DNA of 64,000 nt from Candidatus Levyibacteriota bacterium (GCA_016214555.1 JACROF010000002.1:136125-200124); one strand, 5' to 3'; counted from the first letter of the stretch, positions 20,738 through 62,474 are shown. Made by a program: numbers and translations. Notes: generated by a model from the letters alone, not told the origin.

Positions 20738-20786
20738 AGGCTCCTTCTATCGTAACAAGCAGGCAACAATTATGTCAACAAAACTC

Positions 20787-21820: not shown

Positions 21821-21822
21821 AG

Positions 21823-23295: not shown

Positions 23296-23331
23296 ACTTT
23301 AATAGTAGAGTTAATTACCATGAATTTCAAT

Positions 23332-24048
23332 CTACCTCTGACATGCACCACCACATGTTTCAGTGCAATATGTACCTGTTCCTCCAGGAACGATGTTGCA
23401 GCTAGTTGGATTTCCTGTACAAGAATAATTTTTAACAGGGCAGCTCTCAGGAGTGGGTGTTGGAGTTGGTAGAGGCGTTACAGATGTAACAACGGTAGGC
23501 GTTGGCGTTACTGAGTTGATTGAACCATTTGACAGACTTAGTGATGAAAGATAAGTACAATCAACGTTTCCCAAAACGGTACACGCCCACGTACTATCAA
23601 AATCCACAGGAACACAGCTAGAAAGTGAGGAAAGGATACATGCGCTTGTTGACGGAGTAGTGCTTAGTTTTGAAAATAAAACTGACCAGTCGGGACATGT
23701 TGATCCTGAATGTTGATAAATATAACATGTTGTCGGATCAGATGAACACTGACTGTCCTGAGGAATTCTTCTCATGTAAGTGACGCTACTTTCAATCCAG
23801 GGTTGTCCAAAATCAAGAGATGCTGGGTAACATCCATTATCATTGTAGTAAAGGTCAAGGGCAATTTTAATTTGCGCAACATCCTCTTTCCTTTTAGCAT
23901 CATGGATTCTATCAAGTTGTTTTACAGGATTAATAAAAGTAAGACTAAGATAAATAAGAGTTGCAAGAATAGTGATAACCGTCAAAAGTTCAACGAGAGT
24001 AAAACCTAAAACTCGCTGACGGAATGTTTTGATATTAAAAACCGACAT
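23332..24048 (-). CDS. type IV prepilin with TP-rich linker and Cys-rich C-terminal domain
   Basis: ...RVLG|FTLVELLTVITIL. Contains TPTPTVVTSVTPLPTPTPTPE and multiple Cys. Start is either 24048 or 24078. Confidence 0.65.
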   Translation of the reverse strand: MSVFNIKTFRQRVLGFTLVELLTVITILATLIYLSLTFINPVKQLDRIHDAKRKEDVAQIKIALDLYYNDNGCYPASLDFGQPWIESSVTYMRRIPQDSQCSSDPTTCYIYQHSGSTCPDWSVLFSKLSTTPSTSACILSSLSSCVPVDFDSTWACTVLGNVDCTYLSSLSLSNGSINSVTPTPTVVTSVTPLPTPTPTPESCPVKNYSCTGNPTSCNIVPGGTGTYCTETCGGACQR

Positions 24049-24796
24049 ATTTTGAAATAAAGTAAGCAATATGCTCACCCCATACCATCATAATAAAAGT
24101 TCCAAAGACAAGAAAGGGCCCAAAGGGAACTGTTCCACCGTGCAGCTTTTTCTTCTTAAGAGCAACAAGGAGTAAGGAAATACATGCCCCGCTAAGAAAA
24201 GATAGGTAAAGACCAAAAATTATATAAGGAAAACCTAAAATAAATCCCATTAAAAACGCAAAAATAACATCTCCAAAGCCCATTCCTCTCTTTTTTGTAA
24301 CAAGATAAATGGCATAAAAAAATGCGGCCGCACCAGATCCAGAAAGAAAATGATTTAAAAGCAAAGATGGAGTTGCTAAAAGCATCACAAGCTCTGCTAG
24401 ACATGCAAGCAAAACAAACTGAACGGGAATAATCTCAAACTCTCTGTCTGAAAAGAAGATTACTAACAAGCAAGAAGCTATAATCGACAGGACTATCATG
24501 GGAAAAAGTGAGGTTACATATAAAGCAATGCTCAGAAAAACAAAAGCAGTAATCAACTCAGATATCGGATACCAAAGAGACAATTTTTTCTTGCAATGCT
24601 TACATTTCCCTCTAAGTAATACGAAGGAAATAACAGGAATAAGCTCGCTCCATGAAAGAACTCTTGAGCAAAAATCACATTTTGATCTTCCCATGACAAA
24701 GGATCTGCCAGTTGCAGCATGCTGAGCAATAACGAGAAAAAAGCTTCCAAAAAAGAGCCCAGTGATACCAAAAAAAATTGCAGGAAGTAATTCCAT
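24035..24796 (-). CDS. pilD: prepilin peptidase (A24 family)
   Basis: CDFC...CKHC zinc motif and polytopic membrane topology. Start set at the MELLPAIFFG ATG. Confidence 0.75.
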   Translation of the reverse strand: MELLPAIFFGITGLFFGSFFLVIAQHAATGRSFVMGRSKCDFCSRVLSWSELIPVISFVLLRGKCKHCKKKLSLWYPISELITAFVFLSIALYVTSLFPMIVLSIIASCLLVIFFSDREFEIIPVQFVLLACLAELVMLLATPSLLLNHFLSGSGAAAFFYAIYLVTKKRGMGFGDVIFAFLMGFILGFPYIIFGLYLSFLSGACISLLLVALKKKKLHGGTVPFGPFLVFGTFIMMVWGEHIAYFISKYVGF

Positions 24797-24831
24797 ACAC
24801 TCAGTATAGTAGATATTTTTGATAAACAATA

Positions 24832-25998
24832 CTATGAAACCCAATAATTAAGCCCGTAGAGAATAATAAAAACAATTTGTAATGAGTAGCAAAGAAATAA
24901 CAAAGGGAAAAACAACAATGAATATTTTTTACTGTTTGTGAGAACTCCCATAAGTATGAAAAGAGGAAAAACAGGCAATAAGTACCTCATATATGACATA
25001 AAACTTCCAAATAGCGGAATAAAACCTAACAGAATTGAGTAAATAAAAATAGTTTTATTGAAAAACCTATAGATAAAAGGTAATGATATAAGAAAAATTA
25101 CAAAAAACATTCTGTCCAAAAAAGAATCTAAGTACGAATGAGGTTGTAGATGGGGAGAAAACAAGTTTTTGAGGAAAAAAATCGGATTAATGGCATTTTC
25201 CAATCTCCAACTACTTATCACACTTGATTGATCTTGAAATCCTGAAAAATAATTTCCTGTTGTCATTTGCATAAATAAAAAATAAAAAAAGACACCAAGT
25301 AACGGGATAAGAAAAACGAGAGCTTGAGGATAAAAAGTAAGATCAACTGGATCTGCAAAACTTGGCAGACGAAGCACAGTCTTTTTCTTTTTCTTATCAA
25401 ATAAGTAAAAAAGCAGTAATGGAATAATAGTTAAAATACCGACCGGTCTTGTAAAAATTAAAAAAAATACACTAAACGCTGCGATTAGATAGTTTTTTTT
25501 ATGCAAAAAATAAAAAAGAAAAAGTACAAGAAATATAAAAAGTGCTTCTGAATATACAAGTGACATAAAAAAAGAAGTTGGAAATACCATAAAAAATAAT
25601 GATGCTTTGAATGCTATGTTTTCATCAAAAAGCTCCCTTGTGAGTAAATAGAATATAAGTAATGCGAAAAAAGAAAAAATTGTTGAGCTGATAAGACCTG
25701 ACAAAAGATAATCTGGCACAAATACATGTATCCCTACAATGGTAAGAGGGTAGAGGGGGAAAAATCGATTTGATATGCTTGCTTTGCCATATCCATTCTT
25801 GGCTATATAAAGGTAGTGCATACCATCCCAAGCTTTCAGTCCCGAAAAGATAGAATGTTTTTCGTTTTGTGGAAAAATAAAATTGCTTTCGTACTTATCC
25901 TTAGCATAAGGTAGGAGAAAAGACGAACCAATAATAAAAGAAAAAATTACTATTTTTACTAAGCCATAGGTAATAAAAAGCTGCTTGATTTCTTTCAT
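24832..25998 (-). CDS. polytopic membrane protein, GT-C-like glycosyltransferase candidate
   Basis: At least 9 predicted TM helices, Phe/Leu-rich. Its ATG overlaps the upstream stop (ATGA). Family assignment is tentative. Confidence 0.35.
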   Translation of the reverse strand: MKEIKQLFITYGLVKIVIFSFIIGSSFLLPYAKDKYESNFIFPQNEKHSIFSGLKAWDGMHYLYIAKNGYGKASISNRFFPLYPLTIVGIHVFVPDYLLSGLISSTIFSFFALLIFYLLTRELFDENIAFKASLFFMVFPTSFFMSLVYSEALFIFLVLFLFYFLHKKNYLIAAFSVFFLIFTRPVGILTIIPLLLFYLFDKKKKKTVLRLPSFADPVDLTFYPQALVFLIPLLGVFFYFLFMQMTTGNYFSGFQDQSSVISSWRLENAINPIFFLKNLFSPHLQPHSYLDSFLDRMFFVIFLISLPFIYRFFNKTIFIYSILLGFIPLFGSFMSYMRYLLPVFPLFILMGVLTNSKKYSLLFFPLLFLCYSLQIVFIILYGLNYWVS

Positions 25999-27980
25999 TT
26001 CTCTTCCTTATTGTATTGTTTGATTGAGTCACTCAAGCTAACTCCAAAATATTTTTTAAACGTCTGACTAAGTTGATCTTTTGCCTCTTTTGAAGCATTG
26101 CAATCATCATATGACAAAGCAAGTAATAGATAGTATTTTTTATCAAATTGGTAAAGGTCAATTGCCTTTCTCAAGTTAGGAATTGCGTCGATGCAATTTT
26201 TCTTATTGGTGAGGTACAAAGCCCCGATTGTTGCATAGGCTTTTGCATATTGTTGGTCTACAGCAAGCGCTTTTTTATAGTAAGTCATTGCCAGATCAAG
26301 ATTTTCGTACTCAGATAGGAAATAATTTCCAGTCACAACAAGTGCGTTTGCGTACATCTCACTAACGCTTGGCAGCTTCATAAGGGACCAAATTTTTTCT
26401 GTTCTTTCTAAAAACTCTTCAAAAGATAATGTCTTCTCATCTTTAGACCGATACTCATAATAAAGACCATATGGTACCCATTTCCCAGAAAGAGTTTTGT
26501 CGCTAAAACGAATATCTGAAAAAATCTGATGATCTTTATCCATCTTCTCAAGAAGGGGAAAAAACTCGGAGCGCTTTGTATATCCATAACTCTTCCCGTA
26601 TCTCTCAACGACTTTCTCAGGACCTAACCCATTAAATACTTCCGTATCTTTTCTAAAATTTAGCGCATAACGAATGTACCATGTGTTAAAAAGATTTGTA
26701 TCTCCTGAAAGAAAAAGGAGTGAGTTTTTGGGCAAAACAGCAAGATAATTTTTCCCAAGATCATCACCTGAGGTAAGTTGCGATAGGTTAGTCTTTGGAA
26801 AATTATATGAAAAAAGCATAATTGGTATCAAAAGAAAAATTGCTTGAAAAAGATAAAGATACTCTTTTTTGGTAAAGAAACGCAGTAATGCTTTAGTGAA
26901 CATAAGGACTCCAAAAGGGAAAAATAGAAGAAGGATAAGCGATGAGATGCTTAAGAAGCGCTCATAAATACCAAAATAAAAACTGTTACTTAGGTAAAAT
27001 CCCGCATATAAAATAAACACTGGTCCTGAGATTAGAAAGGATAAAAAAAATGATAATGCTACTACTTTTTCTTTTTTTAAAAGGGAAGCGAAACCAAGTA
27101 TACAGAAAAAAACCACAGGAATCGTCAGCTGAGTTAGGAGAGTAATAAGGTAGGTTTTAAATACGACAAGTCTTGCTTCAAGAGTTACTCCATGAAAAAG
27201 CGCCAACTGGAAAGTGCCATATTTTTTCCGAAGAAGTAAGTCCAAAAATGATTGCAGATCCGTGACGTTTCCCCAATCAACGTGTGGCCTCTTTGATGAG
27301 GCTAAAAATGGGTAAAAATAAACCGAAAATCCTACAAGTGTGCAGATAATGACATACAGTAATATTCTTTTGTGCAGCCTAAAATCTCTCCACAGCTGAG
27401 TACCTATCATCAGTAATACTCCAGGGAAAACAAATATGATTGTATGATGATTGGTAAGAGACAAGCCAGCAACAAAAGAAAGGGCGTAGAGATATACAAT
27501 TCTCCCTTTCGCGCGATAAAAATAGGAGAGGGCAAGGAGTGAAATTGCAAAAAAATTATTCAGTTCAAAAACTTCAGCGATTTCTGCATAAAACCAAAAC
27601 AAAAAACTTGTAGCCAAGGTAAGTGAGGAAATAAGAGAAATAAGTGTGCTCCTTGTCAACTTTTGAATAAGAATAAAATAGACAAAAACAGCTAAAGCTC
27701 CAGAGAGAGCAGAAACAACTCCAACCATATATGCAGGTGTCATGTGAAAAAAAGGCCCAATGTGTACCAAAAGATTTCCAAGAACGGTAAAAAGAGGGTA
27801 TCCTGGAGGGTGAGGGACTCCGAGTATTACCGCAGAGGTCACAAGATCTCCTACATCGCCACCATAAACACTTGGTGATAAATTATGAAGATAAAGAGCC
27901 AGAACACAAACAAAAAGAGCGATGGGGATCGCTCTATAGATGGGCAATATTTTCTTTAGAGTTGAGCGCAATAGTAACAA
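25995..27980 (-). CDS. DUF2723/TMEM260-like membrane glycosyltransferase (GT-C fold) with C-terminal TPR repeats
   Basis: N-terminal ~450-aa polytopic domain plus C-terminal TPR repeats (YYKKALAVDQQYAKAYATIGALY...). No ATG near the 5' end, so TTG at 27980 is assumed. Confidence 0.45.
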   Translation of the reverse strand: MLLLRSTLKKILPIYRAIPIALFVCVLALYLHNLSPSVYGGDVGDLVTSAVILGVPHPPGYPLFTVLGNLLVHIGPFFHMTPAYMVGVVSALSGALAVFVYFILIQKLTRSTLISLISSLTLATSFLFWFYAEIAEVFELNNFFAISLLALSYFYRAKGRIVYLYALSFVAGLSLTNHHTIIFVFPGVLLMIGTQLWRDFRLHKRILLYVIICTLVGFSVYFYPFLASSKRPHVDWGNVTDLQSFLDLLLRKKYGTFQLALFHGVTLEARLVVFKTYLITLLTQLTIPVVFFCILGFASLLKKEKVVALSFFLSFLISGPVFILYAGFYLSNSFYFGIYERFLSISSLILLLFFPFGVLMFTKALLRFFTKKEYLYLFQAIFLLIPIMLFSYNFPKTNLSQLTSGDDLGKNYLAVLPKNSLLFLSGDTNLFNTWYIRYALNFRKDTEVFNGLGPEKVVERYGKSYGYTKRSEFFPLLEKMDKDHQIFSDIRFSDKTLSGKWVPYGLYYEYRSKDEKTLSFEEFLERTEKIWSLMKLPSVSEMYANALVVTGNYFLSEYENLDLAMTYYKKALAVDQQYAKAYATIGALYLTNKKNCIDAIPNLRKAIDLYQFDKKYYLLLALSYDDCNASKEAKDQLSQTFKKYFGVSLSDSIKQYNKEEK

Positions 27981-28510
27981 TTTGTTGCTCCAGTAGAGCT
28001 AGTTTCAGAGATACAGCCAGCTACACTTACACCTGTTGCGTCATAATGTGTATTGATATCTCTTTGACCTGATTTTGATTGAGGTTGATAGCATGCAGTA
28101 ATAGTATTTGAATTTCCGAAAACAACGATCTCTTTAGTAATATTGGTTGCTGTAGTATAGGTTGGTTTCAATTCACCATCTGCAACAAGCGCATTAACAC
28201 AAGTAGATCCAGCACCACCTAACGTATCTGCAGATGCGCTTCCATCATTTCCACTACATCCTGCATAGCCGCCACCAGCATTTGCTGTATCAGCCCAAGG
28301 CATACCATTGTGGGTAGTGAAATAGCGAAGATTTGCATTGAGGTACTCGACCATACTATTTTTAACATTTGAATCCTGTGCTTTTTTTAGTTGCTCAAAA
28401 GGATCAATTGTTGCGATAAGTGCAGTTGCGAGGATACCTAAAATTCCGATAACAACGAGAAGTTCAATGAGTGTAAAACCTTTTTGTAATGTTTTTCGAG
28501 CAGTCGTCAT
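27956..28510 (-). CDS. type IV prepilin
   Basis: MTTARKTLQKG|FTLIELLVVIGILGILA. Confidence 0.75.
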   Translation of the reverse strand: MTTARKTLQKGFTLIELLVVIGILGILATALIATIDPFEQLKKAQDSNVKNSMVEYLNANLRYFTTHNGMPWADTANAGGGYAGCSGNDGSASADTLGGAGSTCVNALVADGELKPTYTTATNITKEIVVFGNSNTITACYQPQSKSGQRDINTHYDATGVSVAGCISETSSTGATNCYYCAQL

Positions 28511-32758: not shown

Positions 32759-33451
32759 ATGTCGTATAATGCATCTGTGAATTCATTTATCATAACCGGC
32801 AACAATCTTTTGCTAATGGAAGAAAAAGTGCAGGAAATCTGTCAAAAATACACTATTTCATCTTTTGATATTACTGCAATTAAACCAGATGGCACGTCCC
32901 TTGGTATTGATGATGTTAAAAAGATGCAGACAAAAGCGTACCTAAAACCACTCAAAGGCGACCACAAAGCAATTGTTCTCCATAATGCGGAAAACCTCAC
33001 TATTCCAGCACAAAATGCGATGCTCAAATTACTGGAAGAGCCTCCAGCAAATACTCTTATCTTCCTTTTAACAAATAATGTCTATGACTTATTGCCAACT
33101 ATTATTTCCCGTGTACAGATACTGTCAGTTGCAGCTTCACAGCATGAAATTAGCGATGATGAAAAGAAGGAGATAATAAAAAGATTTCATACATGGCAAA
33201 TGCAAACTATTCCTGATGCGCTTAAAACAGCAGAACAAATGACCAAAGACAAAGAGAAAACCCTCAAAACGCTTGAGGATTCATTAAGGTTGGGAAGTGA
33301 AGAACTACGAAAAGAAATTCTTTCTGAAAAAGAAGGATTTTTAAGCACCATTCTTCCTTTGCTGCAAAAAACATACCTAACCTTAAAAAATACGAACGCA
33401 AACCCACGACTAACGCTTGAAGCTCTTTTTCTCCAAATAATAAACCTATAG
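32759..33451 (+). CDS. DNA polymerase III delta-prime-like protein (short; no N-terminal Walker A)
   Basis: NAMLKLLEEPP and ISRVQIL motifs (clamp-loader boxes VII and SRC-like). Confidence 0.55.
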   Translation: MSYNASVNSFIITGNNLLLMEEKVQEICQKYTISSFDITAIKPDGTSLGIDDVKKMQTKAYLKPLKGDHKAIVLHNAENLTIPAQNAMLKLLEEPPANTLIFLLTNNVYDLLPTIISRVQILSVAASQHEISDDEKKEIIKRFHTWQMQTIPDALKTAEQMTKDKEKTLKTLEDSLRLGSEELRKEILSEKEGFLSTILPLLQKTYLTLKNTNANPRLTLEALFLQIINL

Positions 33452-33551
33452 TTTGTAATTGTTTTTATTTTTTGTTATACTCTCCAAATCGTTTTCACAA
33501 CTGAGCAATCGTTTGTGGAACATTCGATCTTTAAAAGATAAGGAGAAGGCA

Positions 33552-34769
33552 ATGCTTTTAACAAAAAGAGAGCCGGATGAACCGATCATCACTGACATGG
33601 CAGACCTAGATTGGTATGCCAATACTATGAAATACGCATTTATGACACAGGAGCCCGAACTCAAGGGTACGCTTGTGCTTATCGATCGCGATAATAGAAT
33701 ATTTCCAAAGGGTTTCAACGAGAGGTTTCGCCAGCAGCTTAAATTACTGGCGGAGGCTACGCTGTCACCTGAGGCTGAAGCGCACATGCGAGCTACAGCT
33801 GACTACATGCCAGAATGGTTTTATGATTACCTTCGGCATTTCCGGATAAACCCAGACATGATCTATTCCCATCAAGATGGGGATGGCTACATGCATGTAC
33901 AAGTTCATGGCTATCTCTATGACATCGTCTCTTATGAGACGCCAATCATGGCAATTATGTCTGAGCTGGTAAACGATATTGAAGGAACCACGGTCGACCC
34001 GGACTTCGAAGAAAATGTATACCAAAAAGCTCGCAGACTTGCAGACCTCGGGGCCAAATTCGCAGAAATGGACACACGCCGACGGCCCAACAAGCAAGTC
34101 CAACGACTCTCACTCCACGCCATTAAAAATGGCTCGGGAGGATATCTCAAGGGAACAAGTAACGCAGCACTTGCTGCAGAGCTTGGAATAGCCCTTATCG
34201 GTACGATGGGACACATTTTTCCACAGGCTCATATGGTCTATGGAATACGCTCAGCCAATCGCATGGCCATGATCAACTGGGACAATGCCTTTCAAGGCAT
34301 TTTGGGCACGATGATCGTTGACACGTTCACAACCCCAAAATTTTTGGAAGACTTCACTCCTCACTTCGCGAACCTTTTTAGAGGGACCCGAGAGGACTCA
34401 GGGTCATCCCTCCAGCACATTGACTGGATGGTGAATCACTATCGCTCGATGAACATCGATCCGCTGACCAAAGAAGTCACTTTCACAAACTCGCTTAACG
34501 ATGTCAAGGTTGCCAGCATCAAGGCATATGACGTCGAAAGCAAACTGAGGGACTACTACGGCATCGGCGGTTGGTTCTCCGCAGGTCTTGGCCTTATCAA
34601 GCTCAACATTGTGATGAAGCTTTGGGACGTAACTCGTCCTCAAGAACCCAATCGCAAAATCTATGTTGTTAAGATTCCCAACGAGATTGGTAAACAATCA
34701 GGGGATCCTCGGGCAATCGAAGCTGGGCTCTATGAGCTTGGTATCGAACGCGACTCCTTGTCAATTTGA
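33552..34769 (+). CDS. pncB: nicotinate phosphoribosyltransferase
   Basis: Start at the ATG at 33552 with an AAGGAGAAGG SD. Block-wise similarity to E. coli PncB: FRINPD...ETPIMAIMSELV, EMDTRRR, GTSN...GTMGHIF, GIGG...KLNIVMKL. GC is raised. Confidence 0.8.
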   Translation: MLLTKREPDEPIITDMADLDWYANTMKYAFMTQEPELKGTLVLIDRDNRIFPKGFNERFRQQLKLLAEATLSPEAEAHMRATADYMPEWFYDYLRHFRINPDMIYSHQDGDGYMHVQVHGYLYDIVSYETPIMAIMSELVNDIEGTTVDPDFEENVYQKARRLADLGAKFAEMDTRRRPNKQVQRLSLHAIKNGSGGYLKGTSNAALAAELGIALIGTMGHIFPQAHMVYGIRSANRMAMINWDNAFQGILGTMIVDTFTTPKFLEDFTPHFANLFRGTREDSGSSLQHIDWMVNHYRSMNIDPLTKEVTFTNSLNDVKVASIKAYDVESKLRDYYGIGGWFSAGLGLIKLNIVMKLWDVTRPQEPNRKIYVVKIPNEIGKQSGDPRAIEAGLYELGIERDSLSI

Positions 34770-34777
34770 TTTTAGTC

Positions 34778-34818
34778 AGGCGGTCCGATGCTACATCGGA
34801 CCGCCTCTTCTTTTTACT
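34778..34818 (+). terminator. rho-independent terminator after pncB
   Basis: 12-bp perfect stem AGGCGGTCCGAT / ATCGGACCGCCT with loop GCTAC, followed by CTTCTTTTTACT. Confidence 0.75.
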
Positions 34819-34881
34819 CCCAACAGGCTCACGTATATTTTTACCTCTTGACATTTTTAAAAATCGGAGTATTCTTAGTGT

Positions 34882-35583
34882 ATGAATAACACTAAGTCAT
34901 TACTCCATGAAGCAATACCAAGAAATCTTGACCAGTTGGACAAACCAGCAGTTTCAGTTCAGGTGCTTATTTTTTCCATCAACAAAGGTAAGTTGGAAAT
35001 AGTCCTTATCAAACGCATGAGGGAACCTTTTAAAGATTACTTCAGTATTCCAGGGGACATCATTACTGTTGAAGAAAGCCTCAATGATGCTGCAAAAAGG
35101 ATTTTATATGAAAAAACAGGTATCAAAAATGTCTACCTTGGACAACTTGAAACATTTGGAGAAGTAAATCGTGATCCAAGGGGAAGAGTCATCGCTGTAG
35201 CGTACTATTCACTTCTTCCTCACAATAGTGTCGATCTTTCCAAAGCTCCCAATGGCCTTCATGCTTCGTGGATTCCTGTTGAAAAATTGTCAAAACTTGC
35301 TTTTGACCACGAAGAGATCATCAAAACAGCTATCAAGCGCATTAAGTCAAAACTACTTTATAGCAATATTGCAGGCACACTTTTACCCGAGTCATTTAGA
35401 CTCTCAGAACTGCAGAAAGCATATGAAATCATTCTTGAGGAAAAAATCGACAAAAGAAACTTTAGAAAAAAAATGCTCTCACTTGATGTGATCGAGTCAA
35501 CAGGCGAGATATACAAATTGGGAAATCATCGACCAGCAATGCTGTACAAGTTTAAGTCCAAAGAATTAATTCACTATGACTAA
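34882..35583 (+). CDS. nrtR: NrtR-like Nudix-related transcriptional regulator (Nudix domain plus C-terminal winged helix)
   Basis: Degenerate Nudix box GDIITVEESLNDAAKRILYEKTGI. C-terminal ~80 aa (FRLSELQKAYEIILEEKIDKRNFRKKMLSL) resemble the NrtR wHTH. Lies adjacent to pncB. Confidence 0.55.
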   Translation: MNNTKSLLHEAIPRNLDQLDKPAVSVQVLIFSINKGKLEIVLIKRMREPFKDYFSIPGDIITVEESLNDAAKRILYEKTGIKNVYLGQLETFGEVNRDPRGRVIAVAYYSLLPHNSVDLSKAPNGLHASWIPVEKLSKLAFDHEEIIKTAIKRIKSKLLYSNIAGTLLPESFRLSELQKAYEIILEEKIDKRNFRKKMLSLDVIESTGEIYKLGNHRPAMLYKFKSKELIHYD

Positions 35584-35740
35584 ATTTTTTAAGAAAAACT
35601 TAGTGTATTTTTTACACTACACAAACAACTATTTTAGATTGCTTTTGAAGCTATCTTATAGTACAATTACTTTTCTTGATTTTGTATTTTCAGGTAAAAA
35701 GATTTCAAGACTTATAAGATACTTCACGCGAAGTGAAAAG

Positions 35741-35776
35741 GCTGGAGCAGTCTCGCGGTAGCGACATTGCTCTGGC
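35741..35776. promoter_or_regulatory. 36-nt imperfect palindrome upstream of the PP2C-kinase operon (candidate operator)
   Basis: GCTGGAGCAGTCTCGC-GGTA-GCGACATTGCTCTGGC, with 12/16 arm complementarity. Sits in a 290-nt leader, about 100 nt upstream of the ATG at 35875. Confidence 0.3.
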
Positions 35777-35874
35777 TTTTGTGTGCAACACGCGTTGCCC
35801 GCAGTAGCCAGCTCTTTAACAAAACAGTTAGACAACATATTATTGCTGTTTGTACTTCACGGAAAGGAAGAACA

Positions 35875-36753
35875 ATGACGCGAACGCTGTTTGAGCTTGC
35901 TGACGGGTCAGTAATTGGAACTCACCACAGACGAAACGGAGAAAACAATCAGGATGCATCAGCCATCTACCAAGATGACATGCTCACCATTGGGATTGTC
36001 TGTGATGGCTGTAGTGATTCCAAATTTTCTGAATCTGGTTCCAGAATTGGTTCCAGACTCATTTTACAAAGCCTAGTTAAACAACTCAAACGATACTATC
36101 AATCAACGATAGATTGGTCTACTCAACCATCTCCTGCAGCGTGGTCAACTGACCGTCGCTTTTGGGATAGGATTGAGCGAGACACAACGTCTTCTCTTCA
36201 TCAGCTAGCACAGCAAATGGGCGAAAGCCTTACTGAACAAATTGCAATGCATTTTCTGTTCACAACTATTGGCTTTATTATCGCTCCAACAGGAGGAGTT
36301 TTCTTCTCATTTGGAGATGGAGTAATTGTGGTAAATGGCGAGGTTTTACAAATCGGGCCATTTCCAGGAAATGCACCACCCTACATCGGGTACCAGCTGG
36401 TCAATTCGAGAATCGGGACTGAAAATCCCGAGCTGCTCAAATTCCAAGTACATCGAGAAATTCCGCTTGCCGACCTGAATACTTTCATGGTTGGTACAGA
36501 TGGTGTTTTAGATCTCAAAAGATCAGCAGAAAGACCCCTTCCGGGTAAAAGTTCCCGTGTTCGTCCACTATCACAGTTTTGGGAGGAGGATCAATATTTT
36601 CTCAATCCTGATATGGCAAATCGTCTTTTACGACTAGCCAATCAGGAAGTACATATTTTTGATCCTGTGACCAGAGCACTGCTCAAGACAGAATTTGGCA
36701 TTTTGCCAGATGACACTACTTTTATAGTTGGTCGTAGAAGAAAGGAGGGGTAA
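35875..36753 (+). CDS. PP2C-family (PPM) serine/threonine phosphatase
   Basis: Metal-binding Asp motifs: GTHHRRNGENNQDA, VCDGCSDS, and a C-terminal GTDGV. Start at 35875 with a GGAAAGGAAG SD. Confidence 0.6.
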   Translation: MTRTLFELADGSVIGTHHRRNGENNQDASAIYQDDMLTIGIVCDGCSDSKFSESGSRIGSRLILQSLVKQLKRYYQSTIDWSTQPSPAAWSTDRRFWDRIERDTTSSLHQLAQQMGESLTEQIAMHFLFTTIGFIIAPTGGVFFSFGDGVIVVNGEVLQIGPFPGNAPPYIGYQLVNSRIGTENPELLKFQVHREIPLADLNTFMVGTDGVLDLKRSAERPLPGKSSRVRPLSQFWEEDQYFLNPDMANRLLRLANQEVHIFDPVTRALLKTEFGILPDDTTFIVGRRRKEG

Positions 36754-38661
36754 ATGAGAGTCAACATTGACGGGAAAGCTATATCGCTTAATCCCTCCCA
36801 GTCTATTGGACAGGGCGGAGAAGCGGATGTATACCTTGATAGCAATCGTGCCATTAAGATCTTCAAGCCTCCTACTCATAAAGACTTTGATGGTTTGCCT
36901 CAAGCCCAAAAAAAGGCGGCTGAACGGTTAGTCAGGATGCAAACAAAGCTTGCTGACTTCCCCTCAGGACTTCCATCAAAAGTAGTGACACCTCAGTCAA
37001 TAGTCACTGACACATCGGGCAATAAAATCATCGGTTATACGATGGCTTTCATGCCAGACACCGAGGTTTTGCTGCGATACGCTGAAAAAGGCTTTCGCAT
37101 TCCGGGTATTCCCCAACAGACAGTGGTGGATATCTTTCGGGATATGCACCCAACCGTGTTGGGTATTCACCGACAACAGGTGGTAATTGGCGACTTTAAT
37201 GACCTAAATGTGCTGGTAAAAGGCACTGATGGGTTTTTTATTGACGTCGATAGCTTTCAGTTTGGGAAGTATCCCTGTCTTGCTTACACTCAGCGTTTTG
37301 GTGATCCGCTTCTCATGCGGGAAACCACAATAGCTGAGAGAAAAGAAAAGATGGGGTATTTCACTCTTGCAAAACCCCACAATGAACTCTCTGACTGGTA
37401 TGCATTTTCCATTATGCTGATGCAAAGCCTTTTGTTCGTTGACCCTTATGGAGGAGTATACATTCCAAAAACTCCTGCAGATCAGTTCACCGATCCTGAA
37501 AGGCTCATGCATCGCATAACGGTTTTTCATCCTCAGGTTCGCTATCCAAAACCAGCGATTCCCTTAGGAGTGCTCCCTGATCCGCTACTAGACATGTTCC
37601 AGCGAATCTTTGAGAAAGATCACAGAGGGATTTTCCCTTTAAGTCTTCTTGAAGAAATGCACTGGACAACATGCACCAAGTGCGGCGCAGAGCACGCACG
37701 ACCAGTCTGTCCTGAATGCTCTCACGCAGCACCTGCTGCTGTAAAAGCAGTAGTTACCATTCGAGGAAACGTGATAGCAACAAGAATGTTTCAGACAACA
37801 GGCCACATCGTGTTTGCCTCCTCACAAGGAGGAAAACTTGTATGGCTTTACCACGAAAATGGAAGCTATCGAAGAGAAAACAAGGAAGCAGTACTGAAGG
37901 GGTCATTTGATCCGTTCATGCGGTATCGAATCCAGAGCAATCGGACGCTGTTTGGTAAAAACGGACAGCTCATCACGATCGCTCCTGATAAGACGCCGCA
38001 ACGCTTACAAGTTGACTCTTTTGACAAACTTCCGATCTTTGATGCCAATGAAACTACCCGTTACTGGGTAGCAAACGGTCAACTGCTTCGTGACACCACT
38101 GATCTTGGAGTTTTTTCAGAAGGTCTCTCAACAACCATCGGCAATGTCATGGATCACCAGACCTTGTTTTGGGTCGGAAAGACCTTCGGGTTTGGATTCT
38201 ACCGCGTCGGAGAACTTACTGTTGCATTCGTCTTTGATGCAAAGCAACAGGGAATCAATGACTCGGTTAAATTGCGTATCAGCGGACGACTTGTTGATTC
38301 GACATGTGTTTTCTCAAGCACTCACTGCTGGTTTTTTACCAAAACAGTAGAGCAGGGGAGAACCATTAACCGCTGCACGGCAATCAACCGCAACGGCACG
38401 ATCGAAGCAACAATTGAAGTTGACGACGGAGAAGACTCATGGCTTGGAAAAATCAGAGGTAAATGCGCAACAGGTAATGTTCTTTATTCATCAACAGACA
38501 CAGGTATTGTCCGTGTTGAGGTGGATCAAGAACGGATCTTTGTTGCAAAAACATACCCTGACACCGAACCATACGTTTCGGAGGATACCAATCTTTTTGT
38601 AGGACGTGGTTGCATTTATGCAACTACAGATAAGGAGGTGTACGAGCTCAAATTTACCTAA
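36754..38661 (+). CDS. atypical protein kinase-like protein with central Zn-ribbon and C-terminal beta-rich domain
   Basis: Gly-rich loop IGQGGEADVY and AIKIF (VAIK Lys). Catalytic-loop-like HRQQVVIGDFNDLNVLV, an IDVDSF (DFG-equivalent), and a CTKCG...CPECS zinc ribbon. ATG overlaps the PP2C stop (TAAATG). Confidence 0.55.
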   Translation: MRVNIDGKAISLNPSQSIGQGGEADVYLDSNRAIKIFKPPTHKDFDGLPQAQKKAAERLVRMQTKLADFPSGLPSKVVTPQSIVTDTSGNKIIGYTMAFMPDTEVLLRYAEKGFRIPGIPQQTVVDIFRDMHPTVLGIHRQQVVIGDFNDLNVLVKGTDGFFIDVDSFQFGKYPCLAYTQRFGDPLLMRETTIAERKEKMGYFTLAKPHNELSDWYAFSIMLMQSLLFVDPYGGVYIPKTPADQFTDPERLMHRITVFHPQVRYPKPAIPLGVLPDPLLDMFQRIFEKDHRGIFPLSLLEEMHWTTCTKCGAEHARPVCPECSHAAPAAVKAVVTIRGNVIATRMFQTTGHIVFASSQGGKLVWLYHENGSYRRENKEAVLKGSFDPFMRYRIQSNRTLFGKNGQLITIAPDKTPQRLQVDSFDKLPIFDANETTRYWVANGQLLRDTTDLGVFSEGLSTTIGNVMDHQTLFWVGKTFGFGFYRVGELTVAFVFDAKQQGINDSVKLRISGRLVDSTCVFSSTHCWFFTKTVEQGRTINRCTAINRNGTIEATIEVDDGEDSWLGKIRGKCATGNVLYSSTDTGIVRVEVDQERIFVAKTYPDTEPYVSEDTNLFVGRGCIYATTDKEVYELKFT

Positions 38662-38712
38662 ATCGTGAGGCGCTTTGCCTTTCGATCGAGAAAGAAAAAG
38701 GAGTCAACTTCC

Positions 38713-39822
38713 ATGTCCGGATACGTTCGACCATTAACGCTTCCGCCGCACTACGATCCTAAGAATTGCTACCTCGCTGACTACTCCCATCCCGATACGC
38801 GAGTGTTGATGGATGCGGCACTTGTCTGGCGAGGCCAAAACGGGTTAACACCCGTTGGCAACGACGAAGTGATCATCAATGTGACGGCAATCGACAACCA
38901 ACGCGACTTCGTCTTTCCGCCACCTTACGGCACACTCTTTGTGGGTGGCCGATCAGGCACTGGCGCGATGGACGATCAAGCCCGTGCTATGGCGTTCATG
39001 TACAAGTACATGGGCATCATCACAGAGATCAACAACACGCTTGACACCCATGTCGTGTTCCAAGTCTTCTTTGGATGTGCCCATCTAAATAAGGATGGCA
39101 AAAATCCTGCACCCTACACGCAGATCTCGGCTGACGAGTATCGACGGGGTGACTACCGACCAAATCCAGAAATGGCGGCGCAACTAGGCGTTGATCCGGT
39201 CTGGCTGCAAAAGCAGTTTATCTACTACTGCGAGCAGCTGGAAAGTACGGGACGCTACAAGCTGACTATCTGGCCCGATCACTGCCTTCTCGGAACGCCC
39301 GGTCATCAACTGACTGGTGTCATGAACGAGATGCGCATGTTCCACGCATGGGCACGCGGCGCCAATAACAGGCTTGAGGTCAAGGGTGGAAACCCTCTGA
39401 CCGAACACTACTCGGTCTTCAAACCAGAAGTGATGACGACCTGGGACGGTCAAGCAATTCCGGGTGCTCAGAAAAACGTCGAATTTCTTCGACGTCTCAT
39501 GGGTCTTTCCGGACAGCATGCACGCAAAAACAAACGGGTCATCAACATCTTGTGGGGACAAGCACTATCACACTGCGTGGCTTGGGCGATCGACGATTTC
39601 CTCGTGGAGATCAACGCTCAAGACCCAAGTCTTCTGAAGACAGTCTACATCCTTGAAGACTGCTCTTCGCCTGTTTGCGTACCCAACCCTGACGTTCCCG
39701 GAGCCTTCTATGTGGACTTCACACCCGAAGGCCAGGCGGCTCTGGATCGATTCCGCAATGCTGGAATGAACGTCGTGAAATCAACCGACCCAATCGAGAG
39801 CTGGCCAAACATCCAGCTCTAG
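38713..39822 (+). CDS. isochorismatase-family cysteine hydrolase (long form; possibly nicotinamidase-like)
   Basis: VTAIDNQRDFVFPP (isochorismatase D motif) and GQALSHCVAWAIDD (catalytic Cys region). Start at 38713 with an AAGGAG SD. 369 aa, against ~200 aa for canonical PncA. Confidence 0.45.
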   Translation: MSGYVRPLTLPPHYDPKNCYLADYSHPDTRVLMDAALVWRGQNGLTPVGNDEVIINVTAIDNQRDFVFPPPYGTLFVGGRSGTGAMDDQARAMAFMYKYMGIITEINNTLDTHVVFQVFFGCAHLNKDGKNPAPYTQISADEYRRGDYRPNPEMAAQLGVDPVWLQKQFIYYCEQLESTGRYKLTIWPDHCLLGTPGHQLTGVMNEMRMFHAWARGANNRLEVKGGNPLTEHYSVFKPEVMTTWDGQAIPGAQKNVEFLRRLMGLSGQHARKNKRVINILWGQALSHCVAWAIDDFLVEINAQDPSLLKTVYILEDCSSPVCVPNPDVPGAFYVDFTPEGQAALDRFRNAGMNVVKSTDPIESWPNIQL

Positions 39823-39837
39823 CAGAAGGAAACAAAA

Positions 39838-40635
39838 ATGCAATCACAAACAGCAAGCCTCGACGATCTTTTTCAGAGTGCGGTCTCGCAGGGGAGTATC
39901 TCCCCTGCTACGCTTCAAAGCCTCAACATTCAAGACGTTGGGCAAATGATCCAAGGTTGCCTTGGTATCGCAGTCGACGCTGTCACTGCTAGCAAGGTTT
40001 TCCTGGTATCTCTTCTGGTTGATGACTCGTCGTCAATTCGTTTTGCCGGCAATACGCAGGCGATGCGAGACGGCGTCAACTCTGTCCTTGATGCTCTGAA
40101 TGCCGTCAAAAACAAGGACGGAATCCTGGTTTCCTGTCGCTACTTGAACGGGACGGTTCTTTATCCATTTGTCCCGCTCGATCAGGCTATCCGACTTACC
40201 AGCAGCAACTATGATCCATACGGAGGAACTCCTCTGTACGATCAGACTGCTGTACTGGCGGGATCGGTGATCGCTAAAGCACAGGAGTTCATGCTCAACG
40301 GTGTTCCGGTGACATCATCTAGCCTCGTTGTGACCGACGGTCACGATGAAGGTTCGGTGAATTTTCGCCGACCAGAAGCAGTCGAGCCAGTAATCCGAGA
40401 TCTCCTGGTGCAGGAAAAACATATCTTCGCAGCCATGGGAATCGACGATGGTGGCACTACCAACTTCGCGGATATCTTCCGACGGATGGGCTTTCGTGAC
40501 GAATGGGTCATGACCCCATCCAAGTCGGGTCAGGAAATCCGACGGTGCTTCAACATGTTTTCGCAGTCAACAGCGAGCGCTAGTCAAAACGCGACTAGCT
40601 TTTCGCAGACCGCGCAGGCAGGGTTGAACCCGTAA
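39838..40635 (+). CDS. von Willebrand factor type A (vWA) domain protein (TerY-like)
   Basis: MIDAS motifs DDSSSI (DxSxS), GGTPLYD (Thr) and VVTDGHDEG (Asp). AGAAGGAAAC SD. Confidence 0.6.
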   Translation: MQSQTASLDDLFQSAVSQGSISPATLQSLNIQDVGQMIQGCLGIAVDAVTASKVFLVSLLVDDSSSIRFAGNTQAMRDGVNSVLDALNAVKNKDGILVSCRYLNGTVLYPFVPLDQAIRLTSSNYDPYGGTPLYDQTAVLAGSVIAKAQEFMLNGVPVTSSSLVVTDGHDEGSVNFRRPEAVEPVIRDLLVQEKHIFAAMGIDDGGTTNFADIFRRMGFRDEWVMTPSKSGQEIRRCFNMFSQSTASASQNATSFSQTAQAGLNP

Positions 40636-40671
40636 CGTTGTCAACTGTTTTACCTCAAATACGAGGTTCTC

Positions 40672-40697
40672 GGTGGGGCGTCGAAAGACGCCCCACC
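40672..40697. other. GC-rich perfect hairpin (11-bp stem, GAAA loop) at the right edge of the high-GC block
   Basis: GGTGGGGCGTC-GAAA-GACGCCCCACC. No flanking U-tract on either strand. Confidence 0.6.
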
Positions 40698-40810
40698 AAC
40701 TCACACTCTTCATATCTACTTCTTTTTTAAACAATTCCCATACACTCAAAATTCCATATTCGTCCATCTGTTGAAAAGCGTGAAAATTACTGTTATACTG
40801 GGTCGTACTC

Positions 40811-42618
<1,808 letters not shown>

Positions 42619-50000: not shown

Positions 50001-50767
50001 ATTCTATGAATGATATCTTCAAGCAAGTAAAAACTCCGGTACTCATAACCGTATCTGTCGTTTTGTCACTCATTGTCGTAACAAAAATTTTTGGACCTAT
50101 CCCGTTTAGTGTTACTAGCACTGTCACATCAAATGCTGACCTCTTCACCGTTGAAGGCACAGGAGAAGCCACAGGCACCCCCGACAAAGCTTCATTCGTA
50201 GTAGGAGTAACCAAGACAGCATCAACTGTTGAACAGGCGCAAAACGATACCAATAAAGCAGTAAATGCGATAATCTCATCGCTAAAAAAGCTTGGTATCT
50301 CTGATAAAGACATCAAATCAACTGACTATAATGTCAATCCAAATATTGACTATAGCGATGGCAAACAAAGCACGACTGGCTACACAGTAAGTACCAACAT
50401 TACCGTTACGCTAAAAGACGCCAACAAAGCCAACCAGGCACTTGATACCGCAACAGGAAGCGGAGCCAATGTCATTACTGGAGTCAATTTTACTCTCAAC
50501 GATGATGAAAAAGAAAAGCTTGAGGACAAAGCACGAATGACCGCTATCAAAAACGCCAAAGCAAAAGCACAAAAAATCGCTGGGCAAGCAGGAATTAAAC
50601 TTGGAAAAATAGTCAGCATCTCATTTGGCCAAAATACTCCCGGGCCGATTATGTATGACAAAATGACTGCTCAAAATGCCCAAGACAGGATTTCGGAGCC
50701 AACACAGCTCCAACCAGGAGAAAACAAAGTGAGCATCACTGTTTACCTCTCCTACGAAACCCTTTAA
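49991..50767 (+). CDS. SIMPL-domain (DUF541) protein
   Basis: N-terminal TM helix and the SIMPL fold pattern (VTLKDANKANQALDTA...NFTLNDDEKEKLEDKARMTAIKNAKAKAQKIA). Confidence 0.55.
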   Translation: MGINSMNDIFKQVKTPVLITVSVVLSLIVVTKIFGPIPFSVTSTVTSNADLFTVEGTGEATGTPDKASFVVGVTKTASTVEQAQNDTNKAVNAIISSLKKLGISDKDIKSTDYNVNPNIDYSDGKQSTTGYTVSTNITVTLKDANKANQALDTATGSGANVITGVNFTLNDDEKEKLEDKARMTAIKNAKAKAQKIAGQAGIKLGKIVSISFGQNTPGPIMYDKMTAQNAQDRISEPTQLQPGENKVSITVYLSYETL

Positions 50768-62361: not shown

Positions 62362-62386
62362 TTCTTGGTATAATTGAGTCCTATCA

Positions 62387-62474
62387 GCCGGGATGGTGGA
62401 ATGGTAGACACGAAGGTCTCAAAAACCTTTGATCATAATAGATCATGTGGGTTCGAGTCCCTCTCCCGGCACCA
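62387..62474 (+). tRNA. tRNA-Leu (anticodon CAA), class II with long variable arm, CCA encoded
   Basis: Acceptor stem GCCGGGA/TCCCGGC and D-stem GTG/CAC. Anticodon stem AAGGT/ACCTT with loop CTCAAAA. Variable arm TGATC-ATAATA-GATCA, T-loop TTCGAGT, 3' ACCA. Confidence 0.8.

What the first reader, a model, noticed from the sequence alone, without database searches (positions are those of the whole stretch)
33452..40810. About 7.3 kb higher-GC block between the holB-like gene and gyrB
Sampled 60-nt lines inside 34.0-40.3 kb are 50-57% GC. Flanking housekeeping genes are ~33-40%. Codon usage shifts visibly: many CGC/GGC/CCG codons versus the AAA/AAT-rich background. The block sits between two conserved core genes. 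It is bounded on the right by an 11-bp GC hairpin with no U-tract (40672-40697). Its seven genes (pncB, nrtR-like, PP2C, kinase, cysteine hydrolase, vWA) are all of accessory type. This is the signature of horizontally acquired DNA.
Basis: seen in the sequence. Interest (0 to 1): 0.75.

Follow-up and report, generated by a model that had tools for sequence, protein, structure and literature searches.

The report
Old NAD-salvage gene cassette insertion
The GC-rich block is a real but old insertion into a Candidatus Levybacteria chromosome, and it carries a nicotinamide-recycling gene set controlled by an ADP-ribose-sensing repressor and joined to a kinase/phosphatase/vWA switch; this cassette is widespread in bacteria, apparently unstudied, and GC-richer than its host almost everywhere it occurs.

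Summary
The compositional anomaly is real but patchy. The block is 46.3% GC against 38.6% for the rest of the window. GC3 z-scores are pncB +5.4, kinase +3.2, nicotinamidase-like +7.4 and vWA +6.2, while nrtR and PP2C (+1.2 each) look native.

There are six genes, not seven: a stand-alone pncB, then nrtR, then the operon PP2C / protein kinase with Zn-ribbon and beta-propeller / long nicotinamidase-like enzyme / MIDAS-vWA. Two NrtR operator palindromes sit on the nrtR and operon promoters.

More distant syntenic relatives have holB directly next to gyrB, so an insertion is supported. It is not recent. A relative whose synonymous sites are near saturation carries the same block, in the same slot, with the same GC gradient. 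No mobility genes, tRNA or flanking repeats mark the edges.

In 80 metagenomic loci the four-gene core is almost invariant, usually has nrtR and the same operator, and averages 6 GC points above its flanks.

The best reading is an ADP-ribose-derepressed nicotinamide salvage module gated by a TerY-P-like phospho-switch. I found no description of this cassette in the searched literature. Interest is moderate.

The parts
32759..33451 (+). Left flank: short holB-like DNA polymerase III delta' gene (native composition, GC3 0.32)
   Evidence: PF13177, E 9e-27, and TIGR00678. It lies next to gyrB in relatives L010 and L011.
33453..33481 (+). Promoter-like site for pncB (TTGTAA-17-TATACT with TG)
   Evidence: Consensus scan. 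No NrtR box within 3 mismatches upstream of pncB.
33552..34769 (+). pncB, nicotinate phosphoribosyltransferase (405 aa from ATG 33552, after an AAGGAG ribosome-binding site). It is its own transcription unit. GC3 is 0.525.
   Evidence: PF17767 + PF04095. NCBIfam PRK05321 and TIGR01514 match but score below their cut-offs. Start codon read from the sequence. 64% aa identity to L002. Only 22-27% identical to the NAPRTase genes linked to the cassette in other loci.
34778..34806 (+). Intrinsic terminator after pncB (13-bp stem followed by a T-run)
   Evidence: -25.1 kcal/mol, z -7.2.
34848..34875 (+). Promoter-like site for nrtR (TTGACA-16-TATTCT)
34875..34895 (.). NrtR operator 1: TTAGTGTATGAATAACACTAA, a perfect 7+7 palindrome with a GT-N7-AC core. 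It overlaps the nrtR -10 element and start codon.
   Evidence: Conserved in L002. The motif class is defined in PMC2330246.
34882..35583 (+). nrtR, a Nudix + winged-helix ADP-ribose-responsive repressor. Its Nudix box is degenerate and its composition is native-like (GC3 0.35).
   Evidence: PF21906 E 5e-25, PF00293, NF050029 E 3e-51. Nudix signature read from the translation.
35600..35620 (.). NrtR operator 2: TTAGTGTATTTTTTACACTAC. It overlaps the -35 region of the promoter-like sites of the PP2C operon.
   Evidence: Conserved in L002. The same motif lies upstream of PP2C or nrtR in 34 of 55 loci.
35875..36753 (+). PP2C-family Ser/Thr phosphatase (292 aa from ATG 35875), GC3 0.35
   Evidence: PF13672, E 2e-18. 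Gene call of 292 aa in L001. Found directly upstream of the kinase in 60 of 62 loci.
36754..38661 (+). Protein kinase (residues about 1-300) + Zn ribbon (C307/C310/C319/C322) + C-terminal all-beta, propeller-like domain (334-634). GC3 is 0.43.
   Evidence: Invariant G19xGGEA, K35, D147xxxxN152, D164/D166. AF2 pLDDT 88.6. Foldseek probability 1.0 to protein kinase domains; the top hit is LRRK2 (kinase + WD40). Weak profile hits to kinases in the PDB. No Pfam hit.
38713..39822 (+). Long (369 aa) nicotinamidase-like isochorismatase-fold enzyme, GC3 0.61
   Evidence: NCBI and JGI name family members 'nicotinamidase', and a few match PF00857. Invariant D61, K224, C288, D111, H113, H190. These motifs align to D8, H71 and C138 of M. 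tuberculosis PncA (3pl1) in a weak profile hit.
39838..40635 (+). vWA-domain protein with a complete MIDAS motif (D62xS64xS66 ... T131 ... D167), GC3 0.56
   Evidence: invariant residues. AF2 pLDDT 87, pTM 0.88. Foldseek probability 1.0 to vWA / integrin I domains. No Pfam hit.
40672..40697 (+). 11-bp GC hairpin with a GAAA loop that closes the cassette. Likely a terminator or 3'-end stabiliser.
   Evidence: Conserved in L002, where the stem is kept despite sequence differences next to the loop.
40771..40799 (+). gyrB promoter-like site (TTGAAA-17-TATACT), conserved in L002. It belongs to the native flank.
40811..42618 (+). Right flank: gyrB, split into two ORFs in this window by an internal deletion of about 135 bp at 41938/41939

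Best explanation
The block is an old chromosomal insertion between holB and gyrB in a Candidatus Levybacteria lineage. It has two units.

(1) A stand-alone pncB with its own promoter and terminator.

(2) nrtR followed by the operon PP2C phosphatase, protein kinase (Zn ribbon + beta-propeller), long nicotinamidase-like enzyme and MIDAS-vWA protein.

Proposed mechanism:
- NrtR sits on two palindromic operators and represses its own gene and the operon.
- When NAD+ is cleaved, by NAD-consuming enzymes, ADP-ribosyl transfer or NADase activity, free ADP-ribose rises and releases NrtR.
- The nicotinamidase then converts the nicotinamide released with it to nicotinate. PncB converts nicotinate to NaMN for NAD+ resynthesis.
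- The kinase/PP2C/vWA trio, organised like a TerY-P triad, acts as a reversible phospho-switch. It may gate or localise the nicotinamidase, and the MIDAS site may hold a phospho- or acidic peptide or help load the enzyme's metal.

Status of each step:
- Shown: gene identities at fold and motif level, the operators and their conservation, the conserved gene order, absence of the block in distant syntenic relatives, and its presence in a close one.
- Inferred: the ADP-ribose response, by analogy with characterised NrtR proteins.
- Inferred: nicotinamidase activity.
- Unknown: what the triad phosphorylates.

The raised GC, especially in pncA and vWA, is a recurring property of the cassette family. 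It probably reflects repeated transfer or replacement from GC-rich reservoirs, or a gene-specific bias. It is not evidence of recent arrival here.
For: Source and genes:
- The window is from a Cand. Levybacteria MAG.
- Gene identities.

Operators:
- TTAGTGT-N7-ACACTAA at 34875-34895 and 35600-35620, overlapping promoter-like hexamers and conserved in L002 and L006.
- Across 830 kb of related loci there are 72 such sites against 2 in shuffles. Sixty of them lie in the 5% of sequence just upstream of nrtR or PP2C.
- The motif class and the ADP-ribose response of NrtR are described in PMC2330246.

Conserved gene order:
- PP2C upstream of the kinase in 60/62 loci.
- pncA-like gene downstream in 60/62.
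- vWA next in 45/46.
- nrtR within 6 kb in 28/40.
- nadD/NADK-like and NAPRTase genes are frequent downstream.

Insertion:
- L010 and L011 have holB next to gyrB.
- None of the 80 other loci has the cassette beside gyrB or the pil genes.

Age:
- L002 has the same block, slot and GC gradient.
- DNA identity is 78.1% in the block and 76.6% in the left flank.
- 4-fold sites are near saturation.

Family-wide GC excess.
Against: - No biochemical evidence exists for any of the proteins.
- The window's nicotinamidase-like protein, kinase and vWA miss every Pfam and NCBIfam model. The sequence-level link to PncA structures is weak (E 0.02-0.4), and no structure was predicted for this protein.
- No NrtR box was found upstream of pncB, so pncB may not be co-regulated.
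- Only one outgroup lineage (L010/L011) lacks the block, so a deletion there is not formally excluded.
- Some relatives of the cassette, such as L095 and L003, have no visible nrtR or operator.
- The cause of the GC3 gradient is unresolved.
Confidence: 0.6

Rival explanations
1. Recent genomic island. The whole 7.3 kb arrived lately from a GC-rich donor and has not yet ameliorated.
For: - GC3 z-scores of 5-7 for pncB, pncA-like and vWA, and a tetranucleotide z up to 8.4.
- Absent from L010 and L011.
- The genes are of accessory type.
Against: - The same block, slot and gradient are in L002, although 4-fold sites are near saturation.
- Block and flank have diverged to a similar extent.
- nrtR and PP2C have native composition.
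- No integrase, tRNA or boundary repeats.
- No close donor: the best outside hits are 55-58% identical.
- No close copies on plasmids or phages.
Confidence: 0.1
2. Conflict system. The cassette is primarily an anti-phage or anti-toxin device. A TerY-P-like triad senses infection or ADP-ribosylation. The nicotinamidase either restores NAD+ after NADase attack or removes nicotinamide, which inhibits sirtuin- and ART-type enzymes. Housekeeping salvage would not be its main role.
For: - The architecture parallels the TerY-P triad (vWA + PP2C + kinase with Zn ribbon), versions of which are stand-alone defence systems (PMC10542128).
- NrtR/Nudix-HTH plus vWA plus ADP-ribosylglycohydrolase neighbourhoods have been predicted to counter viral ADP-ribosylation (PMC9503650). 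Cyanobacterial versions of this cassette carry an ADP-ribosylglycohydrolase between PP2C and the kinase.
- Patchy, context-free distribution across phyla.
- Hints of intra-cassette mosaicism.
Against: - No PADLOC hit to TerY-P or any defence model beyond noise.
- The proteins are unusually conserved (about 50% identity across phyla, mean column identity 60-69%), unlike fast-evolving defence genes.
- The tight linkage is to NAD biosynthesis genes (nadD/NADK, NAPRTase), not to nucleases or other effectors.
- CPR bacteria depend on salvage, so a housekeeping role is plausible (my own knowledge, not tested here).
Confidence: 0.2
3. Ancestral region. The block is native to this lineage and was deleted in the L010/L011 lineage. 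Its composition reflects gene-specific constraint or biased gene conversion rather than foreign origin.
For: - The GC excess and gradient recur in most hosts and persist through saturated synonymous divergence.
- There are no mobility signatures.
- Only one outgroup lineage was available.
Against: - The cassette sits in different genomic contexts in every other lineage sampled.
- In the L058/L076 clade, pncA and vWA are decaying toward host GC (S>W 49 against W>S 12) and are less diverged than PP2C and the kinase, which looks like incoming GC-rich DNA.
- The kinase tree is star-like and mixes hosts of 33-74% GC.
Confidence: 0.12

Closest known systems
NrtR regulons of NAD salvage, e.g. pncB-nrtR-pncA or nrtR-pncA-pncB operons (Rodionov et al. 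2008, PMC2330246)
   Same: - A Nudix + winged-helix repressor.
- A 21-bp palindromic operator with a GT-N7-AC core over the promoters.
- Linkage to pncA- and pncB-type salvage genes.
   Different: - The regulated operon also encodes a kinase, a PP2C phosphatase and a vWA protein.
- The nicotinamidase is about 350-370 aa, roughly twice the usual size, and misses PF00857.
- pncB here has no detectable operator.
TerY-P triad: TerY-like vWA + PP2C + Ser/Thr kinase fused to a C-terminal Zn ribbon (Anantharaman et al. 2012, as summarised in PMC10542128), and the TerY-P-like modules reported as stand-alone antiphage defence systems (Gao et al. 2020, as cited in PMC10542128)
   Same: The same three protein types in one operon, including a Zn ribbon directly after the kinase domain and an intact MIDAS site.
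   Different: - No sequence match to PADLOC TerY-P models or to Pfam VWA models.
- The kinase carries an additional beta-propeller of about 300 aa.
- A nicotinamidase is embedded between the kinase and vWA genes.
- Control is by NrtR, and the linkage is to NAD genes rather than to Ter or restriction genes.
ADP-ribosylglycohydrolase-centred, Nudix/WYL-regulated systems predicted to counter viral ADP-ribosylation (Iyer et al. 2022, PMC9503650)
   Same: - An NrtR-like Nudix-HTH regulator, a vWA 'chaperone' and a coupled phosphatase, with an ADP-ribose-sensing logic.
- Cyanobacterial versions of the cassette include an ADP-ribosylglycohydrolase.
   Different: - The described systems use rhodanese, calcineurin, HD or HAD phosphatases and have no kinase or nicotinamidase.
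- The window's cassette lacks the glycohydrolase.
Classical genomic island
   Same: Atypical composition, accessory gene content, and interruption of conserved synteny.
   Different: - No integrase, tRNA or direct repeats.
- Mosaic composition.
- Shared with a relative across saturated synonymous divergence.

Membership tests
Horizontally acquired genomic island | Composition or codon usage deviates from the host | tested here: met
   GC3 z is 5.4 (pncB), 3.2 (kinase), 7.4 (pncA-like) and 6.2 (vWA). nrtR and PP2C are at z 1.2.
Horizontally acquired genomic island | Absent from the syntenic site in related genomes | tested here: inconclusive
   Absent in L010 and L011, where holB and gyrB are adjacent. 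Present in the closer relative L002. Only one outgroup lineage was available.
Horizontally acquired genomic island | Mobility signatures at the borders (integrase, tRNA, direct repeats) | tested here: not met
   No boundary repeats. None of the six block genes is an integrase. The nearest tyrosine recombinase is 10 kb away and XerC/D-like. A dedicated tRNA scan was not run.
Horizontally acquired genomic island | Phylogeny places the genes with another lineage | tested here: inconclusive
   The NJ tree of the kinase is star-like, and window + L002 sit on a long isolated branch. Nearest neighbours differ by gene. The best outside identity is 55-58%.
NrtR regulon | Regulator with a Nudix domain and a C-terminal NrtR winged helix | tested here: met
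   PF00293 + PF21906 (E 5e-25), and NF050029 at E 3e-51, below its curated cut-off.
NrtR regulon | 21-bp palindromic operator with a GT-N7-AC core in the promoter regions of the target genes | tested here: met
   Two sites at 34875-34895 and 35600-35620. Conserved in L002 and L006. Sixty of 72 sites in related loci lie upstream of nrtR or PP2C, against 2 sites in shuffles.
NrtR regulon | ADP-ribose releases the repressor from DNA | not testable with these tools
   Needs a gel-shift assay with and without ADP-ribose.
TerY-P triad | vWA protein with a MIDAS site, PP2C phosphatase and Ser/Thr kinase encoded together | tested here: met
   The gene order is conserved in 45-60 loci.
TerY-P triad | Kinase fused at its C-terminus to a Zn ribbon | tested here: met
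   Invariant C307/C310/C319/C322 straight after the kinase domain. An extra beta-propeller follows it.
TerY-P triad | Sequence membership in the TerY-P / TerY families | tested here: not met
   No PADLOC match to TerY-P models at E <= 1. No Pfam VWA or Pkinase hit at E <= 10.
Nicotinamidase (PncA, isochorismatase-like) | Asp-Lys-Cys catalytic triad and Asp/His/His metal site | tested here: met
   Invariant D61, K224, C288, D111, H113, H190 in 36 sequences. The motifs align to D8, H71 and C138 of 3pl1.
Nicotinamidase (PncA, isochorismatase-like) | Significant match to the family model or fold | tested here: inconclusive
   No PF00857 hit for the window protein. Profile against the PDB gives E 0.02-0.4. 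A few homologues carry PF00857, and NCBI and JGI name them nicotinamidase.
Nicotinate phosphoribosyltransferase (PncB) | NAPRTase N-terminal and catalytic domains | tested here: met
   PF17767 and PF04095 above their cut-offs. NCBIfam PRK05321 and TIGR01514 match but fall below theirs.

The most novel reading that the evidence does not exclude
The PP2C / kinase-Zn-ribbon-propeller / long nicotinamidase / vWA operon under NrtR control may be a widespread, uncharacterised ADP-ribose-triggered signalling system. It has 563 kinase clusters at 50% identity with E <= 1e-30, and three of its four proteins have no Pfam family. In this reading, phosphorylation gates nicotinamide removal and NAD+ recovery, possibly as a response to phage- or toxin-driven NAD+ cleavage. 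Its 3' half (pncA-vWA) would be repeatedly replaced by, or held at, high GC3 independently of host composition.
Probability: 0.3. Interest if true: 0.7.

Novelty: new variant of a known kind. Interest (0 to 1): 0.45.

Why it matters
- For genome scanning, this is a worked example of GC excess misleading about recency. The anomaly persists across saturated synonymous divergence and recurs in dozens of hosts.
- Biologically, it points to a conserved link, apparently undescribed, between eukaryote-like Ser/Thr signalling and NAD+ salvage under an ADP-ribose sensor. The link is found in CPR bacteria, cyanobacteria and other phyla.
- CPR bacteria are thought to rely on salvage. NAD+ depletion is a central theme of phage defence. 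A regulated nicotinamidase module is relevant to both.
- The cyanobacterial copies offer culturable hosts in which the idea could be tested.

Tried and rejected
- Polarising third-position changes in pncA and vWA with L094 as outgroup. The outgroup state is about 55% GC whichever ingroup differs, so it is saturated and uninformative. I draw no conclusion from it.
- Single-sequence and profile searches of the three unnamed proteins against PDB sequences gave nothing or only weak hits.
- PADLOC and PHROGs scans gave no meaningful match.
- Looking for the cassette on plasmids and phages found only distant kinase-domain matches.
- Cluster look-up for taxon names of the closest kinase homologues returned no names.
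- The genome-collection scan with holB found no close Levybacteria apart from the distant L010/L011 lineage.
- An Rfam scan of the block found nothing above noise.
- A boundary-repeat search found none.
- Foldseek against AFDB50 was unavailable.
- Literature searches combining NrtR, nicotinamidase, vWA, PP2C and TerY-P found no description of this cassette. The key 2012 Ter paper and the 2006 cyanobacterial NAD paper are not held, so prior mention there cannot be excluded.
- Translational selection as the cause of high GC3 was considered and rejected. No native gene in the window exceeds GC3 0.39, apart from one other outlier at 0.44.


Full report
**Source and observation**

The window comes from a Candidatus Levybacteria MAG. 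The 635-aa protein is identical to NCBI HZC02_01080. A Logan assembly of the same population (L001) is 99.97% identical to the window.

The block 33452-40810 is 46.3% GC, against 38.6% for the rest of the window. The rise is not uniform:

| Segment | GC | GC3 | GC3 z-score |
|---|---|---|---|
| pncB | 47.9% | 0.525 | 5.4 |
| nrtR | 37.3% | 0.35 | 1.2 |
| nrtR-PP2C spacer | 35.7% | n/a | n/a |
| PP2C | 43.9% | 0.35 | 1.2 |
| kinase | 45.9% | 0.432 | 3.2 |
| nicotinamidase-like | 53.6% | 0.608 | 7.4 |
| vWA | 52.5% | 0.556 | 6.2 |

- Only 38% of the 60-nt lines in 34.0-40.3 kb reach 50% GC, against 5.9% elsewhere.
- The signal lies at third codon positions. The 52 background ORFs have GC3 0.299 +/- 0.042, and GC1+2 in the block is only mildly raised.
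- Tetranucleotide distance peaks at 37-41 kb (z up to 8.4).
It is strong (-28.5 kcal/mol, z -6.2) and conserved in a relative.
- There are six genes, not seven.

**What the genes are**

- pncB (33552-34769) matches both NAPRTase domains. It has its own promoter-like site and a strong terminator.
- nrtR (34882-35583) is a Nudix + NrtR winged-helix protein. Its Nudix box is degenerate, as read from the translation.
- PP2C (35875-36753) matches PF13672.

The next three proteins match no Pfam or NCBIfam model. Each has thousands of homologues at about 50% identity.

- The 635-aa protein keeps a glycine loop, the catalytic lysine, a D-x4-N catalytic loop and a metal-binding Asp. It also has four invariant cysteines. 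Its AF2 model (pLDDT 88.6) shows a protein-kinase domain (Foldseek probability 1.0), then a Zn ribbon, then an all-beta propeller-like domain. The top structural hit is LRRK2, which has a kinase and a WD40 domain.
- The 369-aa protein is called nicotinamidase by NCBI and JGI. It keeps D61/K224/C288 and D111/H113/H190. These align with the catalytic and metal residues of M. tuberculosis PncA in a weak profile hit.
- The 265-aa protein has a complete MIDAS motif. Its AF2 model has pLDDT 87 and a vWA fold (Foldseek probability 1.0).

**Regulation**

Two near-perfect palindromes of the form TTAGTGT-N7-ACACTAA lie at 34875-34895 and at 35600-35620. The first lies over the nrtR promoter and start codon. 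The second lies over the -35 region of the operon promoter. They fit the 21-bp GT-N7-AC NrtR operator class (PMC2330246).

Both are conserved in L002. An exact copy sits in the cyanobacterial locus L006.

In 830 kb of related loci there are 72 such sites, against 2 in shuffled sequence. Sixty of them fall in the 5% of sequence just upstream of nrtR or PP2C. Thirty-four of 55 loci with enough upstream sequence have at least one.

No operator was found upstream of pncB.

**The cassette is conserved and widespread**

Counts from 80 metagenomic loci plus L003 and L006:

| Feature | Loci with it / loci informative |
|---|---|
| PP2C directly upstream of the kinase | 60/62 |
| Nicotinamidase-like gene directly downstream | 60/62 |
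| vWA next | 45/46 |
| nrtR within 6 kb upstream | 28/40 |
| nadD/NADK-like gene downstream | 10/28 |

- About 19 loci also carry a NAPRTase that is only 22-27% identical to the window's pncB.
- Named hosts include several CPR groups, many cyanobacteria, Acidobacteriota, Bacteriovorax and Deltaproteobacteria.
- Locus GC ranges from 33 to 74%.
- The kinase family has 563 representatives at 50% identity with E <= 1e-30.
- Cyanobacterial versions insert an ADP-ribosylglycohydrolase between PP2C and the kinase.

**Was the block acquired?**

Two more distant relatives share pilC-pilT-pilB-holB-gyrB-...-gyrA synteny with the window. These are L010 and L011, GTDB MAGs labelled 'Pseudomonadales'. Their PilB and PilT are about 52% identical to the window's. 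In them holB is followed by gyrB after about 290-330 bp.

None of the other 80 loci has the cassette next to gyrB or the pil genes. In L003 it lies between gatB and a nadD-NADK fusion. In L095 it lies among unrelated genes.

An insertion is therefore the best reading. Only one outgroup lineage was available.

**The insertion is not recent**

- L002 (kinase 83% identical) has the same six genes in the same slot.
- L002 shows the same GC3 gradient: 0.52/0.37/0.37/0.44/0.66/0.63.
- DNA identity between window and L002 is 78.1% in the block and 76.6% in the left flank.
- Four-fold degenerate sites differ at p = 0.47-0.62 in block genes and 0.45-0.65 in flank genes. The saturation ceilings are about 0.70-0.75.
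- No integrase, tRNA or boundary repeats were seen. No close copies exist on plasmids or phages.

**The GC excess belongs to the cassette family**

- In 38 loci with at least 5 kb of flank, the cassette averages +6.2 GC points over its flanks. Cassette GC tracks host GC (slope 0.84, r 0.89).
- In many deep-branching non-cyanobacterial lineages, pncA and vWA have far higher GC3 than PP2C and the kinase. Examples, in gene order, are L036 0.40/0.50/0.78/0.76, L088 0.55/0.49/0.83/0.74 and L095 0.46/0.49/0.63/0.65. The cyanobacterial clade shows no gradient.
- My inference rests on one assumption: the block descends vertically from the ancestor of the window and L002. S<->W differences at 4-fold sites of pncA are 0.44, with a ceiling of about 0.50. 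That implies a per-lineage relaxation factor of about 0.35. Neutral decay toward the host's roughly 0.28 cannot then leave GC4 at 0.51-0.66 beside a kinase at 0.38-0.40. The 3' genes must have a separate, later history, or the bias must be maintained.
- In the less saturated clade L058/L076 with outgroup L062, pncA and vWA show S>W 49 against W>S 12. The implied equilibrium of about 0.52 equals flank GC. Their third-position divergence is also lower than that of PP2C and the kinase. This looks like younger GC-rich DNA that is being ameliorated.
- Nearest neighbours of the window differ by gene. Pairwise distances of the four genes correlate only at 0.36-0.55. These are hints of mosaicism, not proof.
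- The attempt to polarise changes in the window and L002 lineages failed because the outgroup is saturated.

**Mechanism proposed**

By analogy with characterised NrtR proteins (PMC2330246), ADP-ribose from NAD+ cleavage would release NrtR from both operators. The nicotinamidase would turn the co-released nicotinamide into nicotinate. PncB would turn nicotinate into NaMN.

The kinase/PP2C/vWA trio has the organisation of a TerY-P triad, including the Zn ribbon after the kinase (PMC10542128). It is the likely post-translational gate. Its substrate is unknown.

The vWA protein might also serve as a metal-loading partner. This is speculation prompted by the title of PMC6941528.

A conflict role is a live alternative, for example recovery of NAD+ after a phage or NADase attack, or a link to ADP-ribosylation (PMC9503650). 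Against it, there is no PADLOC match, the proteins are highly conserved, and the linkage is to NAD genes.

**Novelty**

NrtR-pncA/pncB regulons and TerY-P triads are each known. I found no paper that combines them, though two relevant older papers are not held. I rate the cassette a new variant of known kinds. The 'horizontal transfer island' reading is partly right about origin but wrong about what the GC signal means.

Noticed in passing
window 41938-41939 (gyrB, 40811-42618): The window lacks about 135 bp that are present in the Logan assembly of the same population (L001) and in L002. This splits gyrB into two overlapping ORFs. It is probably an assembly error or a minor variant in the MAG, not a real pseudogene.
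   Followed up: yes
window 62374-63975 (+): A 533-aa ORF with no Pfam match, GC 46% and GC3 0.44. It is the only other clear compositional outlier in the window, and it runs almost to the window's end.
   Followed up: partly
window 19943-28510 (-): A run of N-methyl (type IV pilin-like) genes sits upstream of pilC/pilT/pilB. With them are a TMEM260-like O-mannosyltransferase (25995-27980) and a very low-GC (30%) PIG-V/PMT-like glycosyltransferase (24832-25998). This is a pilus-plus-glycosylation cluster, and it has its own tetranucleotide deviation (z about 3).
   Followed up: partly
window 50764-51714 (-): A XerC/D-like tyrosine recombinase lies 10 kb to the right of the block. It is not adjacent, and nothing links it to the block.
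   Followed up: partly
L006 9101-9916; L056 8123-8896; L080 8222-8980: Cyanobacterial-type versions of the cassette carry an ADP-ribosylglycohydrolase gene between PP2C and the kinase. In L006 an exact NrtR box lies just before the kinase gene.
   Followed up: partly
L010, L011 (GTDB records CAZESB010000025.1, CAZWKL010000002.1): These MAGs are labelled 'uncultured Pseudomonadales'. They nevertheless share the pilC-pilT-pilB-holB-gyrB-gyrA arrangement with this Levybacteria window, at 48-67% protein identity. The taxonomic label looks wrong.
   Followed up: no
phage records LR756511.1 (120817-121620) and LR745208.1 (214180-214947): Two huge uncultured phage genomes (595 kb and 485 kb) encode distant relatives of the cassette's kinase domain (24-27% identity).
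   Followed up: no
L003 13960-15354 and about 10 other loci: A nadD-like adenylyltransferase fused or adjacent to an NAD kinase often follows the vWA gene. This extends the cassette into a fuller NAD/NADP module in other lineages.
   Followed up: partly
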